A DNA stretch of 64,000 nt from Eledone cirrhosa. Its lineage: Eukaryota. Below the pieces are notes generated by a model, which saw nothing but the letters and a program-made list of their open reading frames with translations, made no database searches and was not told where the DNA came from. Positions within the stretch are counted from its first letter, which is position 1. Every line of letters starts with the position of its first letter. The stretch spans positions 49,476,001 to 49,540,000 of the forward strand of contig OZ024747.1 in assembly GCA_964016885.1 (NCBI GenBank). The letters run 5' to 3'. A program made the translations under genes and the position numbers. Of the stretch, positions 2,846 through 35,724 are shown in pieces.

Positions 2846-2964
2846 ATAGGAACGAGTAGGACCCCGACGGCTGAGCTAAAGCCGTTTCGATGGCTAATTC
2901 TGGACTCCAGAAATAGCCGTTGAAACGGCTTGAGCTCAGCCGTCGGGGTCCTACTCGTTCCTAT
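2846..2964. repeat. 119-bp near-perfect palindrome built from the 3' half of a hammerhead motif
   Basis: Arms pair around C2905 with two mismatches and two G-T pairs; the + strand reads GAAAC-GGCT-TGAGCTC-AGCC-GTC-GGGG (2922-2948). Confidence 0.9.
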
Positions 2965-3170
2965 ATATATATATATATATATATATATATATATATATAT
3001 ATATATATATATATAAATATATATATATATATATATATATATATATATGTATATATATATATATATATATATATATATATATATATATATATATATATAT
3101 ATATATATATATATGTATATATATATATATATATATATATATATATATATATATATATATATATATATAT
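2962..3170. repeat. (TA)n microsatellite, about 210 bp
   Basis: Direct reading; explains the YIYI ORFs. Confidence 0.98.
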
Positions 3171-3301
3171 GAGAAAGTAATCTGAGATTTTTGAATATTA
3201 ATAATATTCCATTCATTTACAATTATACAAACACCCTCTTTTTAAGCCATGTCAGTAGAATGACCCTGTCATTCTTGCTCTTGTATTGGTATGTAAACAG
3301 A

Positions 3302-3348
3302 ACTGCAGACACTAACGTTTCTGAGTGATTACCCTTCATCAGTGTAGC
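3302..3348 (-). ncRNA. Minimal type I hammerhead ribozyme motif (Penelope-type)
   Basis: Minus strand reads GCUACA-CUGAUGA-A-GGGU-aauc-ACUC-A-GAAAC-GUUAGU-GUC^UGCAGU; core intact, helix I has one mismatch. Confidence 0.65.
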
Positions 3349-3516
3349 ATACTGGTACCTGCCAACTGTCAGAGCTAGTGAAAATATATAACATTTTCTA
3401 AAATATACAGTGACTGATCGGCCTGATTTGCATATTAGCAGACTGGCTGATCAGTCAGATCTTCATATTAGCAGATCCACTGATCAGCCAGATAAAAAAA
3501 AAATATCTATATAATA

Positions 3517-3706
3517 GACCGGGTGATGTGTTGTTTCCTTGAGCAAGACACTTTATTTCACATTGCTCCAGTTTACTCAGCTGTAGAAATGAGATGATAG
3601 GGACTGGGGTCCCTATCATTCCACTGCAAAGTGGTTGTGGAGGTGCCACGGCAAAAAAGCACCCAGTACTCACTGTAAATGAGGTTGGTGTTAGGAAGGG
3701 CATCCA
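3517..3706 (+). mobile_element. SINE family A, truncated at both ends
   Basis: Near-identical to the internal part of 4003-4345. Confidence 0.85.
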
Positions 3707-3725
3707 CATATCTAAGAACTGGCTA

Positions 3726-3778
3726 ACTGCCTGATGAGGTCATAGCCATTCAATGGCTATCGAAATATATATAGCAGT
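3726..3778 (+). ncRNA. Minimal type I hammerhead ribozyme motif, apparently intact
   Basis: ACUGC-CUGAUGA-G-guc-AUAGCCAUU-c-AAUGGCUAU-C-GAAA-UAUAUA-UA^GCAGU: perfect 5-bp helix I, full core, palindromic helix III, AUA cleavage triplet (3771-3773). Confidence 0.85.
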
Positions 3779-4002
3779 AAATGAGGTCATAGCCAATGAA
3801 TGGCTATGACCTCATCAAGCAGTTAGCCAGTTCTTAGATATGCCAGCTGTGTTTATGGTGTTGATGGTATCAGAGCCTTGGGACACACACATATATATAT
3901 ATATATATATATATATTATATTTATATATATAAATATAATATATATATATATCATCATCATTTTACGTCTGCTTTTCTCTGCTTGCAAATATATATATAT
4001 AT

Positions 4003-4345
4003 GGAGGCACATGGCTTAGTGGTTAGAGCATTGGCCTTGCAATCAAAAGGTTGTGAGTTCAATTCTCAGACCGGGTGATGTGTTGTTTCCTTGAGCAAGA
4101 CACTTTATTTCATATTGCTCCAGTTTACTCAGCTGTAGAAATGAGATGATAGGACTGGGGTCCCTATCATTCCACTGTAAAGTGGTCGTGGAGGTGCCAC
4201 AGCAAAAAAAGCACCCAGCACTCACTGTAAATGAGGTTGGTGTTAGGAAGGGCATCCAGCTGTAGAAATCAAGCCAGAATCAGTTCCCGTCCCACCTTTG
4301 CAAGCAGGGAAAAGTGGACGTAAAATGAAATGAATGAAATGAATA
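4003..4345 (+). mobile_element. Full-length tRNA-derived SINE family A with RTE-LINE-like 3' tail
   Basis: A box TGGCTTAGTGG, B box GAGTTCAATTC, core CCTTGAGCAAGACACTT, tail GGTTGGTGTTAGGAAGGGCATCCAGCTGTAGAAA shared with the RTE 3' UTR. Confidence 0.88.
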
Positions 4346-33804: not shown

Positions 33805-34030
33805 TCTATATATCTAAAACAGAGAATGTCTGTCTGTCTGACTCCCTAAAACTCGAGAACCACCCAACCGATTGTTTTCAAACTTTACACATGCAATACT
33901 TATGGTCGTGTGAGTGTTTTGAGCAAAAAAATATTTCAAATTTTCAATGCCCTAGGGACCGCATTAGATAGCTATAACGTCGCGCCCTTATAATATGTCT
34001 GTGCTGTCTGCATTACGACATAATGACACT
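33805..34030 (+). mobile_element. Helitron-like 5' end
   Basis: A|TCTATATATCTAAAAC followed by (TGTC)n, typical of non-autonomous Helitron starts; 3' end not found. Confidence 0.5.
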
Positions 34031-34075
34031 ATCTGCGTGTATATGTATATATATAGTGTGTGTGTGTATATATAT

Positions 34076-34288
34076 AATGTGGCCGTGTAGGCAACACGGT
34101 AAAAACCTCCCAGCCCCACACTGTAAATGTGGTTGGTGTTAGGAAGGGCATCCAGCTGTAGAAAACCCGCCAGACAGTCCTATGCGAGCAAGACAACCAC
34201 TCTTGCCTCAAGTGGGAAAACCCCCGTCCAAACCCATGCAAGCGTGAAACAGGGACGTTAAACGATGATGATGATGATGATGATGATG
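34076..34288 (+). mobile_element. RTE LINE 3' UTR fragment
   Basis: Near-identical to 26287-26492; (GAT)n tail. Confidence 0.85.
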
Positions 34289-34926
34289 TGTAACGTTTTT
34301 CAAAATATTTACTTCTGCGTTCACAGATTGATTTTTTTTAGTTTCAGAAGATCCCATTAAGGGTGAAAGCAGCGATTCTTCGCATAAACTTTAATCTGTT
34401 ATTTTAATATATATATATAATTATATATTCGTGTACAGATATTTTTGCATACAGAATAACAAAATATAAACAAACGTATTTATTACACGAGAGCCGATAA
34501 GGATAAATATATATCAAATATATAAGAACCCTAATAATTATTTCATTCTTTCTACACCCTTGCAAATATGTTTTGGACACATATACGTACATTCCTATAA
34601 ATATTCTGTAAGTAGCTTTAAATATTTTTTTCTTAAAATCTTTTCTTCAATTTTTCTTCCAGCTTAATAGTAACCTCTCTTTCCTTTTCTTATTAAAAAA
34701 ATAATTCTAATAATTAGTTAAATATACCTAGCGTCTAAACATAACAGTCTTTTTCAGTTTTAACGTTATCCTCATTAGCATATCCATCTTGAGGTTTGAA
34801 GTTTTGTTCACTATTCGCATAGAACTCACAACATTAAGTTCTTATGTTGTATCTGTAAACCAATTTGTAAACCTGTAAACCTATAAACCTATAAACCTGT
34901 AAACCTATCTGTAAACCAATTTTTGT

Positions 34927-34985
34927 ATTTTATCTGATGAGAGTGTACCAAAATATTGGTACCCTTGAAATATATAAAATAAAAT
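34927..34985 (+). ncRNA. Type I hammerhead-like motif, degenerate at the cleavage site
   Basis: AUUUUAU-CUGAUGA-GAG-u-GUACCAA-aaua-UUGGUAC-c-CUU-GAAA-UAUAUA-AA-AUAAAAU. Confidence 0.55.
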
Positions 34986-35287
34986 AAATATGGTTTTATA
35001 AAGATAGTTTCCATTTATTAATATTATTGATATATATATATATATATAAAATAATTGTTTCTACTTTAGGCACAAGGCCAGCAATTACCCAGTACATTAC
35101 TGGTACTTTATTTTATCGACCCCGTAAGGATGAAAGGCAAAGTTAACCTCTATATATATAAAATAATGATATGATTCCAGTTCCTCAGAGAAATAACAAT
35201 GCAACCAGGAGCTGGACATATCGGAGTATTGACGGAGTAAAACACACTTAAACAACATGTGTACCTGTCTCTACCACACCAATTCCG

Positions 35288-35335
35288 ACTGCCTGAAGAC
35301 GTCAGAGCCAATGATCTATGAATATATATAACAGT
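35288..35335 (+). ncRNA. Degenerate hammerhead-like motif
   Basis: ACUGC-CUGAAGA-cgucAGA..UCUau-GAA-UAUAUA-UA-ACAGU; same helix I and III design as 3726-3778 but eroded. Confidence 0.4.
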
Positions 35336-35647
35336 ATATCTATAATTTATAATAAACGAAGCCAAATTTTACCTATTTGACTTAATTATTTTACATTACT
35401 CCGGAGTAAACAAACCAACCTGTGTACTTTGTCGAGTGCTCCAATCTGCATACTGAGGTGTCGGTAAACAACCAACATATACTAAAAATATATAAATACA
35501 TATATATATATACCATTTATGTTAGGCTGTTTACCAATGGGTAGAACAAGCTGTCCCCGAATAGAATCGGTCCTCTACTTTCTTTTTTCTATCTATCTTC
35601 CATTCTCTTTTTGGGTTCAACATAATCCTGTTATATATTTCTGTAAA

Positions 35648-35724
35648 GAATATCTGATGAAATCGCCTAGTCTTGCATCGTAACCGGATGATAGGGCTGG
35701 GCCATTGATATATGTATAGTGTTT
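35648..35724 (+). ncRNA. Degenerate hammerhead-like motif with long helix II
   Basis: GAAUAU-CUGAUGA-AAU-c-GCCUAGUCUU..AGGGCUGGGC-c-AUU-GAUA-UAUGUA-UA-GUGUUU; GAAA mutated to GAUA. Confidence 0.5.

What the first reader, a model, noticed from the sequence alone, without database searches (positions are those of the whole stretch)
2846..35724. Dispersed collection of about seven minimal type I hammerhead ribozymes in DCAF15 introns
Seen: CUGAUGA/helix II/GAAA/helix III/NUH motifs closed by helix I at 3302-3348(-), 3726-3778, 6713-6794, 18866-18912, 34927-34985, 35288-35335 and 35648-35724, plus half-motifs at 2846-2964 and 18008-18085. The helix sequences differ between copies yet still pair, and helix III is short and palindromic or nearly so (UAUAUA, UGAUCA, CCCGAGGG). 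Known: this is the design of hammerheads in Penelope-like elements and non-LTR retrozymes, which cleave as dimers. Inference: several independent ribozyme-bearing, mostly non-coding retroelement families colonised this genome, often beside (TA)n. I do not know of a description for this lineage.
Basis: partly seen in the sequence, partly recalled or inferred. Interest (0 to 1): 0.85.

Follow-up and report, generated by a model that had tools for sequence, protein, structure and literature searches.

The report
Octopus Penelope and retrozyme hammerhead remnants
The self-cleaving-RNA (hammerhead) motifs in these octopus introns are mostly decayed ends of Penelope-like retrotransposons and of short non-coding elements that insert with the same two-armed footprint, which would make this genome a test bed for the proposed idea that hammerheads make circular RNA templates for retrotransposition.

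Summary
The motifs are real, above chance (2 strict hits against 0.04 in shuffles), and lie in DCAF15 introns of an octopod. Only two or three are intact here; six of seven lie antisense to the gene. Each belongs to a different repeat family with hundreds to thousands of candidate copies. Five of eight families (A, C, D, E, H) are 3' ends of protein-coding Hydra-clade Penelope-like elements (PLEs), a clade already described with hammerheads and (TA)n targeting in Octopus. H has intact, near-identical 3,531-bp tandem copies elsewhere, with a U3-A8 core. Two families (B about 675 nt, G 430 nt) are ORF-less, circularly permuted tandem units, i.e. retrozyme-like. F is unresolved. B and a very young 592-nt family found elsewhere insert like H: two head-to-head arms in (TA)n, one with a tail and one without (H 6 of 6, B 17 of 20, young family 12 of 12). 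5' ends do not stop at the cleavage site, and insertion-private variants recur in all units of both arms, as a circular template predicts. A rough estimate is 10^5 motifs genome-wide. No cleavage or RNA evidence was obtained.

The parts
319..43178 (-). Host gene DCAF15 (part); exons at 43077-43178, 22819-22929, 19669-21150, 7130-7216, 5295-5426, 2270-2386, weaker matches at 939-1205 and 319-456
   Evidence: Pfam PF14939; 88% identity to an Octopus bimaculoides protein; tblastn exon map
2768..2962 (-). Family H: 5'-truncated two-armed insertion of an autonomous Hydra PLE in (TA)n. Long arm (minus strand, about 2768-2906) carries the tail, short arm (plus strand, 2906-2962) does not; each holds only the 3' half of the U3-A8 hammerhead
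   Evidence: 93.8% to the intact 3,531-bp unit L422
3174..3493 (-). Family G: partial copy of an ORF-less 430-nt circularly permuted unit; hammerhead 3302-3348, core intact, one mismatch each in helices I and II; the only full-length motif sense to DCAF15
3706..3885 (+). Family A: 3' end of a Hydra PLE with an intact hammerhead (3726-3778) and an atypical inverted copy of its upstream part (3789-3885)
6495..7087 (+). Family B: about 0.9 unit of an ORF-less ~675-nt circularly permuted unit between (TA)n runs; hammerhead 6713-6794 with U16.1 changed to A
18008..19073 (+). Family C: complete two-armed insertion of a Hydra PLE 3' end; tailless inverted arm 18008-18089 (minus strand), tailed arm 18091-19073 with intact hammerhead 18866-18912 (helix II closed by U-A, not G-C)
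34289..34451 (+).
34503..35038 (+). Family D: 3' end of a Hydra PLE; hammerhead 34926-34986 with U16.1 changed to A
35169..35504 (+). Family E: 3' end plus tail of a Hydra PLE related to A; degenerate hammerhead 35288-35335
35505..35755 (+). Family F: inverted tail piece (35505-35547) plus truncated direct arm; degenerate hammerhead 35648-35724; autonomy unresolved

Best explanation
The motifs are decayed 3' ends of at least eight retroelement families: five are Hydra-clade Penelope-like elements with an RT plus GIY-YIG ORF, two are ORF-less tandem hammerhead units that likely use the same enzyme, and one is unresolved. Shown: each family carries a type I hammerhead upstream of a fixed 3' end in (TA)n. 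Shown for H, B and the young family R: insertions are often two head-to-head arms, one ending at a first site and the other after a tail of 80-166 nt. Inferred: the PLE protein cuts both strands of an AT-rich target and starts reverse transcription at two internal sites of the RNA, one from each DNA end; the two cDNAs are joined at their variable 5' ends. Inferred, less firmly: the hammerhead cuts tandem transcripts (as a dimer or with protein help) into unit-length RNAs that are ligated to circles and copied round and round, which gives seamless multi-unit arms. The copies in this window are dead or nearly so and likely do nothing for DCAF15.
For: ORF link: A in 2 of 28 fetched copies, E in 3 of 19; C in L208/L209/L211 (one repeated region) and L225 of 24; D in 9 of 24; these pieces match the H protein at E 1e-12 to 1e-43. 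H: five hammerheads in tandem at a 3,531-bp period, adjacent units 3,530 of 3,531 identical, a 716-aa ORF with the Hydra motifs; 40 of 40 scored places were 100% identical over 181 nt. B and G: downstream sequence re-enters upstream of the hammerhead, tandem units with 2-3 hammerheads exist (L300, L308, L036, L337; L275, L133), and the longest ATG ORF is 69 and 60 aa. No endonuclease end runs co-linearly into a unit in 67 B and 69 G loci. Tail on exactly one arm: H 6 of 6 pairs, B 17 of 20, R 12 of 12 pairs with both ends in view. A shared CTC...GAG stem opens the tail in A, B, C, D, E, H and R (read by eye). Covariation in the B lineage: 9 of 21 pairs change on both sides, 0 of 500 shuffles as high. 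Circle signs: R 5' ends are spread over the unit, none within 15 nt of the cleavage site among 36 arms (the one entry typed as position 1 lies about 18 nt upstream); variant 481C>T is in 4 of 4 spanning pieces on both arms of one insertion and absent from six insertions of the same haplotype; 190G>T and 524C>T are in all spanning pieces of L451. Two-strand cleavage, two internal start sites and a protein-assisted hammerhead are shown in vitro for a lizard PLE (PMC11167929).
Against: No cleavage or RNA data here. In the lizard PLE, hammerhead mutants did not affect insertion in vitro and no RNA reads ended at the cleavage site (PMC11167929). Only 1 of 9 Xenopus retrozyme dimers cleaved (bioRxiv 10.64898/2026.07.22.740005). 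G fits the two-site rule poorly (about 6 of 19 pairs; 22 of 50 single arms end at 136-144 and 9 at 164-175). In old B and G insertions tandem units are mostly no closer to each other than to other loci. The five-hammerhead H array alternates C,T,C,T at unit position 843, which one monomer circle would not give. No autonomous partner with sequence similarity to B, G or R was found (best match R to H, E=0.02). The covariation count rests on 11 related rows, one misaligned at its 3' end.
Confidence: 0.8

Rival explanations
1. Same elements and same enzyme, but the template is an uncleaved linear multimer transcript from a tandem source locus (or arrays grow by re-insertion into their own ends and by unequal exchange); the hammerhead is not needed for insertion and has another job such as freeing the RNA from read-through transcripts.
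For: PMC11167929: unprocessed RNA was the dominant substrate in vitro. Read-through of the cleavage site fits this equally. The alternating variant in the H array fits a multimer template or a later two-unit duplication.
Against: Variants private to one R insertion are in every spanning unit of both arms, and no source locus with that haplotype was seen among the 22 insertions drawn from 24 of 24 scored candidates. Helices are kept by compensatory change across B-like subfamilies 66-78% alike.
Confidence: 0.35
2. B and G are not independent non-autonomous elements but deletion products or stacked terminal repeats of autonomous PLEs that were not sampled.
For: Only 40 of 1,702-4,447 (B) and 1,898-2,478 (G) first-look candidates were scored per search. 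ORF-linked copies were rare even in A (2 of 28).
Against: In B and G the tail runs directly into the sequence upstream of the next hammerhead, with no room for an ORF, in every longer-than-unit copy mapped. A B-like subfamily at about 70% identity is also permuted (L191). R shows the same plan in near-identical young copies.
Confidence: 0.15
3. The intronic hammerheads are kept by the host to regulate DCAF15 RNA.
For: Eight or nine motifs lie within 33 kb of one gene.
Against: Seven of eight full-length motifs (counting I) are antisense to the pre-mRNA, most carry core lesions, and 20 arbitrary 10-kb stretches hold intact motifs at a similar or higher density (10 in 200 kb against 2 in 64 kb).
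Confidence: 0.02
4. The motifs are chance matches in AT-rich, microsatellite-rich DNA.
For: Rfam finds no hammerhead here; helix III is often TATATA next to (TA)n.
Against: Shuffle controls, multi-copy families with intact cores, covariation and a fixed position in intact PLEs.
Confidence: 0.01

Closest known systems
Hydra clade of Penelope-like elements, incl. Hydra-1_Obim of Octopus bimaculoides (PMC8557442; read: passages, section 11, supplement parts 2 and 52 and search hits)
   Same: Single ORF with RT then C-terminal GIY-YIG; RW[K/R], DKT, CxCX5C, CxxC and CxH motifs; (TA)n insertion; type I hammerhead near the 3' end; inverted 5'-truncated copies; tail at one end.
   Different: H is 3.5 kb with a 1.1-kb 3' UTR (published families mostly under 3 kb) and has a U3-A8 core, whereas the listed Hydra hammerheads have C3-G8. 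None of the window hammerheads matches the listed Hydra-1_oBim motif (by eye). The paper lists one Octopus Hydra family; here at least five occur in one window.
Non-LTR retrozymes of animals (PMC7229834, passages and Discussion read; bioRxiv 10.64898/2026.07.22.740005, parts 1 and 3 of 5 and passages read)
   Same: ORF-less head-to-tail units of a few hundred bases, one type I hammerhead per unit, low GC, living beside PLEs; proposed circular RNA template and PLE mobilisation.
   Different: B (about 675 nt) and R (592 nt) are longer than the 150-450 bp quoted; their hammerheads are PLE-like (long helix II) rather than the canonical loop-loop type; most copies are dispersed and under two units. 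Their two-armed, one-tail insertion footprint was not found in the parts read of these papers (the preprint has no 'tail' or 'target site'). Circular RNA is shown there, not here.
Minimal PLE hammerheads (PMC4209133; parts 1-2 of 4 read)
   Same: Short helix I, long helix II with a bulge near its base, palindromic helix III, mostly single motifs in truncated PLEs, opposite-strand pairs 100-700 bp apart, U3-A8 core variant.
   Different: These keep a 2-5 bp helix III, so they are not the helix-III-less minimal form. The estimated number (order 10^5) exceeds the about 9,000 reported for Xenopus tropicalis and 4,000 for coelacanth.
PAc, Poseidon-clade PLE of Anolis carolinensis (PMC11167929; parts 1-2 of 4 read)
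   Same: Tandem units, hammerhead at the repeat/ORF junction, two internal RT start sites bounding the tail, cleavage and extension of both strands, AT-rich target.
   Different: Other clade; tail 30-40 nt there against 80-166 nt here; in PAc the ORF starts inside the hammerhead, in H about 190 nt after the cleavage site.

Membership tests
Type I hammerhead ribozyme | Core CUGANGA (or U3-A8 variant), GAAA, UH with helices I-III, helix I open | tested here: met
   Intact in window at 3731, 18870 and loosely 3342(-); intact in most family copies; covariation in the B lineage
Type I hammerhead ribozyme | Match to an Rfam hammerhead model | tested here: not met
   None in the window at E<=1; none among 150 of 272 listed matches for ten loci
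Type I hammerhead ribozyme | Self-cleavage after H17, as monomer or dimer | not testable with these tools
   Only predicted: helix III segments self-pair as homodimers at -3.2 to -26.3 kcal/mol, and five of seven form no hairpin alone
Hydra-clade PLE (families A, C, D, E, H) | Single ORF, RT followed by C-terminal GIY-YIG | tested here: met
   Intact 716-aa ORF in H; broken pieces upstream of A, C, D, E match it. Pfam copy on hand gives no hit; 2,214 homologues at E<=1e-20, nearly all unnamed
Hydra-clade PLE (families A, C, D, E, H) | RWK-type and DKT motifs, no GxKF/Y, CxCX5C linker, CxxC and CxH in the endonuclease | tested here: met
   H: RWR 36, DKT 116, CxCX5C 571, CxxC 669, CxH 697, no GxKF/Y; linker and C-terminal motifs read by eye in A, D, E pieces, C-terminal motifs only in C
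Hydra-clade PLE (families A, C, D, E, H) | Insertion in (TA)n, 5' truncation, inverted copies, optional tail, hammerhead near 3' end | tested here: met
Hydra-clade PLE (families A, C, D, E, H) | Placement within Hydra in an RT phylogeny with published members | not tested
   Published sequences were seen in the supplement and compared by eye only
Non-LTR retrozyme (families B, G; R outside the window) | ORF-less head-to-tail unit with a type I hammerhead in consecutive units | tested here: met
   B up to 3 hammerheads (L300), G 2 (L275, L133), R up to 5 per arm; many B and G units carry core lesions
Non-LTR retrozyme (families B, G; R outside the window) | Expressed as linear and circular unit-length RNA | not testable with these tools
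   No RNA holder listed for G; only contigs could be laid
Non-LTR retrozyme (families B, G; R outside the window) | Derived from the terminal repeat of an autonomous PLE | tested here: inconclusive
   Shared footprint and tail stem, but no significant sequence match to H and no ORF-linked copy
Hydra PLE or retrozyme (family F) | Upstream ORF, or circular permutation | tested here: inconclusive
   Neither within about 1.1 kb upstream in 24 long copies; nine copies end near an AT-rich run there
Naiad PLE | N-terminal GIY-YIG and no canonical hammerhead | tested here: not met
   H has a C-terminal endonuclease and a full hammerhead

The most novel reading that the evidence does not exclude
This octopod genome records, in DNA, the missing step of the retrozyme and PLE life cycle: one hammerhead-made RNA circle is primed from both ends of a (TA)n break at two fixed internal sites and copied by rolling-circle reverse transcription into two head-to-head multi-unit arms. 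The same footprint in a recently active autonomous Hydra element and in ORF-less 430-675-nt units would be direct evidence that PLE proteins mobilise non-LTR retrozymes, in a genome holding on the order of 100,000 hammerheads.
Probability: 0.45. Interest if true: 0.72.

Novelty: new member of a known kind. Interest (0 to 1): 0.5.

Why it matters
The window itself is ordinary: dead transposon ends in introns. What it leads to is more useful. Why PLEs carry hammerheads, and what mobilises animal retrozymes, are open questions; the papers read offer co-occurrence, phylogeny and one in vitro system in which the ribozyme was dispensable. Here an intact, recently active Hydra element and a very young ORF-less family share a strict two-arm, one-tail footprint with mapped start sites, so both questions become directly testable with natural pairs. 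The genome may also be among the richest in hammerheads reported, in forms that Rfam misses (U3-A8 and A4 cores, long helix II).

Tried and rejected
Rfam scans of the window and ten loci gave only microsatellite-driven miRNA-like matches. A GIY-YIG Pfam search (10,597 candidates, 150 scored, 30 loci) reached mainly other PLE clades: 0 of 30 had a strict hammerhead downstream within 1.5 kb and none linked to the window families; hammerhead-like cores were seen by eye about 400 nt after the ORF in L184 and L191. The idea that H is a Naiad with a hidden hammerhead was rejected. The idea that 2846-2964 is a MITE was rejected once longer copies showed the 5' half. The idea that cleavage sets the 5' end of inserted copies was rejected: G 5' ends fall off steadily across the site and run up to 137 nt beyond it, and R ends are spread. 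Within-locus against between-locus identity was uninformative for old B and G copies. Expression: no RNA holder listed for the G stretch; contigs of three guessed-RNA runs covered only a flanking repeat or nothing, and one run of unknown kind covered it; neither is evidence. A genome search with the DCAF15 exon failed. Two look-ups of earlier findings returned nothing. Literature searches: hammerhead+Penelope+octopus, retrozyme+cephalopod, hammerhead ribozyme+cephalopod, octopus genome+Penelope and two broader ones showed no paper on cephalopod retrozymes; a 2026 Octopus vulgaris repeat annotation has no 'ribozyme' in its text (PMC13282606, passages). Subscription papers and preprint supplements (species table of the 2026 preprint) could not be seen.
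Full report
OBSERVATION. A type I hammerhead descriptor finds two intact motifs (3731 and 18870, plus strand) against 0.04 in 100 shuffles; tolerating A at position 16.1 gives four against 0.04; a looser form also keeps 3342 on the minus strand. The others carry core lesions in this copy. Rfam does not see any of them. The host gene is DCAF15 on the minus strand; its closest named homologue is from Octopus bimaculoides at 88% identity, so the organism is inferred to be an octopod. 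The exon map puts all motifs in introns; six of the seven full-length motifs are antisense to the pre-mRNA.

FAMILIES. Each motif used as a query in the 3.0-Gb genome returned a separate family: 311 (A, 3726), 1,702 (B, 6713), 1,665 (C, 18866), 992 (D, 34927), 2,321 (E, 35288), 1,024 (F, 35648) and 2,478 (G, 3302) first-look candidates, 40 scored each. Fetched copies mostly keep the core: A 27 of 28, B 13 of 19, C 9 of 19, D 17 of 19, E 14 of 19, F 13 of 19, G 17 of 19. Copies have fixed 3' ends in (TA)n, variable 5' ends, and frequent inverted partners. In an 11-row alignment of the B lineage, including three subfamilies 66-78% alike, 9 of 21 pairs change on both sides (0 of 500 shuffles; slid controls give at most 5), with the caveats that rows are related and one is misaligned.

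CODING FAMILIES. Long copies of A (2 of 28) and E (3 of 19) run 1.0-1.2 kb upstream into a broken endonuclease ORF and RT pieces. Searches with upstream sequence did the same for C (L208/L209/L211, one repeated region, and L225, of 24) and D (9 of 24), with co-linear DNA between ORF and hammerhead. The palindrome at 2846-2964 lacks CUGANGA, but longer copies show a U3-A8 core upstream. Its upstream sequence gave 40 of 40 identical places, among them an array with five hammerheads at a 3,531-bp period and adjacent units 3,530 of 3,531 identical, preceded by an inverted truncated arm. Each unit holds a 716-aa ORF with RWR, DKT, YRDD, CxCX5C, YIG, CxxC and CxH and no GxKF/Y, the features given for the Hydra clade in PMC8557442 (section 11). 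The A, C, D and E pieces match this protein. That paper lists Hydra-1_Obim from Octopus bimaculoides with (TA)n insertion and a hammerhead (supplement). The window piece is 93.8% identical to the young element.

NON-CODING FAMILIES. In B and G the sequence after the hammerhead re-enters upstream of it. Mapping 68 B and 70 G loci on one natural unit gave units of about 675 and 430 nt, read seamlessly through the cleavage site, with two or three hammerheads in L300, L308, L036, L337, L275 and L133; a later search showed more B tandems. Longest ATG ORFs are 69 and 60 aa, and no endonuclease end runs into a unit in 67 B and 69 G loci. F showed neither ORF nor permutation within about 1.1 kb. One of 20 arbitrary genomic stretches held a third ORF-less family, R (592 nt, U3-A8 core), with identical units; its search gave 24 candidates, all scored, in 22 insertions with up to five units per arm.

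SHARED FOOTPRINT. Where two arms meet head to head, one ends at a first site and the other after a tail: H 6 of 6 pairs (+20 and +100 after the cleavage site), B 17 of 20 (about +299 and +410; three exceptions), R 12 of 12 with both ends in view (+80 and +246). G is noisy (about 6 of 19). The window's H and C insertions follow the rule. Seven families open the tail with a similar CTC...GAG stem (by eye). PMC11167929 shows in vitro that a PLE protein cuts and extends both strands and starts at two internal sites that bound the tail. I infer that the ORF-less families use a PLE protein, probably a Hydra one; which one is not shown.

ROLE OF THE HAMMERHEAD. 5' ends do not stop at the cleavage site, so the template is not a cleaved linear monomer. 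Junctions between units are perfect in R. Variant 481C>T is in all four spanning pieces on both arms of one R insertion and absent from six insertions of the same haplotype; two variants behave alike in L451. This is what re-reading one circle predicts, the model proposed in PMC4209133 and PMC7229834. Against it: the H array alternates at one position, old B and G tandems are uninformative, the lizard hammerhead was dispensable in vitro, and only 1 of 9 Xenopus dimers cleaved. Helix III segments self-pair better between two copies than alone, which fits dimer cleavage but does not show it. No RNA evidence was obtained. I put the circle step at about even odds.

ABUNDANCE. Twenty 10-kb stretches taken at round coordinates held 10 strict C3-G8 motifs (shuffle mean 0.025) in 4 stretches and 6 U3-A8 motifs (0.33) in 2. 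That is 50 per Mb (bootstrap 5-110), about 150,000 genome-wide (15,000-330,000); with the variant, 80 per Mb. The sample is small and clumped. The window, with 2 strict motifs in 64 kb, is not enriched.

VERDICT. New here are further Hydra families, one apparently recently active, octopod retrozyme-like families not found in the searches made, and their shared insertion footprint. New member of a known kind; interest 0.5.

Noticed in passing
window 34340-34390 (+): A ninth hammerhead-like motif; the family core reads CAGAAGA (A at position 4) in 19 of 21 copies, with helices I-III kept. An A4 core conserved across a family is unusual; ORF link and activity untested.
   Followed up: partly
L363/L424 (G000:C4:249,999,721-250,002,431) and 21 other insertions: Family R: very young 592-nt ORF-less tandem element with a U3-A8 hammerhead, two-armed insertions of up to ten units (G000:C3:223.99 Mb); best natural substrate for testing circles.
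   Followed up: yes
L421/L422 (G000:C1:437.198-437.215 Mb): Intact Hydra PLE array, 3,531-bp units, 716-aa ORF, many identical copies genome-wide; units alternate C,T,C,T at one position.
   Followed up: yes
family G unit, window 3400-3493 (-): Several ATGCAAAT-like octamer motifs (name recalled) upstream of the hammerhead; CCAAT boxes lie upstream of it in A, B and E. Possible internal Pol II promoters (read by eye).
   Followed up: no
L181-L200: Other PLE clades with long RT plus GIY-YIG frames (up to 938 aa); some have a hammerhead-like core about 400 nt after the ORF (L184, L191), others none within 700 nt.
   Followed up: partly
all loci fetched: 239 distinct descriptor hits fall into 43 clusters, 16 with more than one member; the largest is a D-like group with a shared AT-rich helix I and varied helix II. 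Singletons may include chance hits.
   Followed up: partly
window 3789-3885 (-): The family A copy has an inverted duplicate of its upstream part rather than of its 3' end, unlike the usual two-armed insertion; probably a later rearrangement.
   Followed up: no
window 11730-12290, 24103-26003, 38307-39469, 55280-56549, 61902-63334; 53684-54064: Fragments of LINE-type reverse transcriptases (PF00078 for 24103-25479 and 61902-62516) and a mariner-type transposase piece (PF01359).
   Followed up: no
window 12841-14586, 14958-15304, 31270-31702: Minisatellites with 24-, 74- and 86-nt units; tRNA-like stubs at 4012-4069 and 47692-47749 below Rfam's cut-off, probably SINE heads.
   Followed up: no
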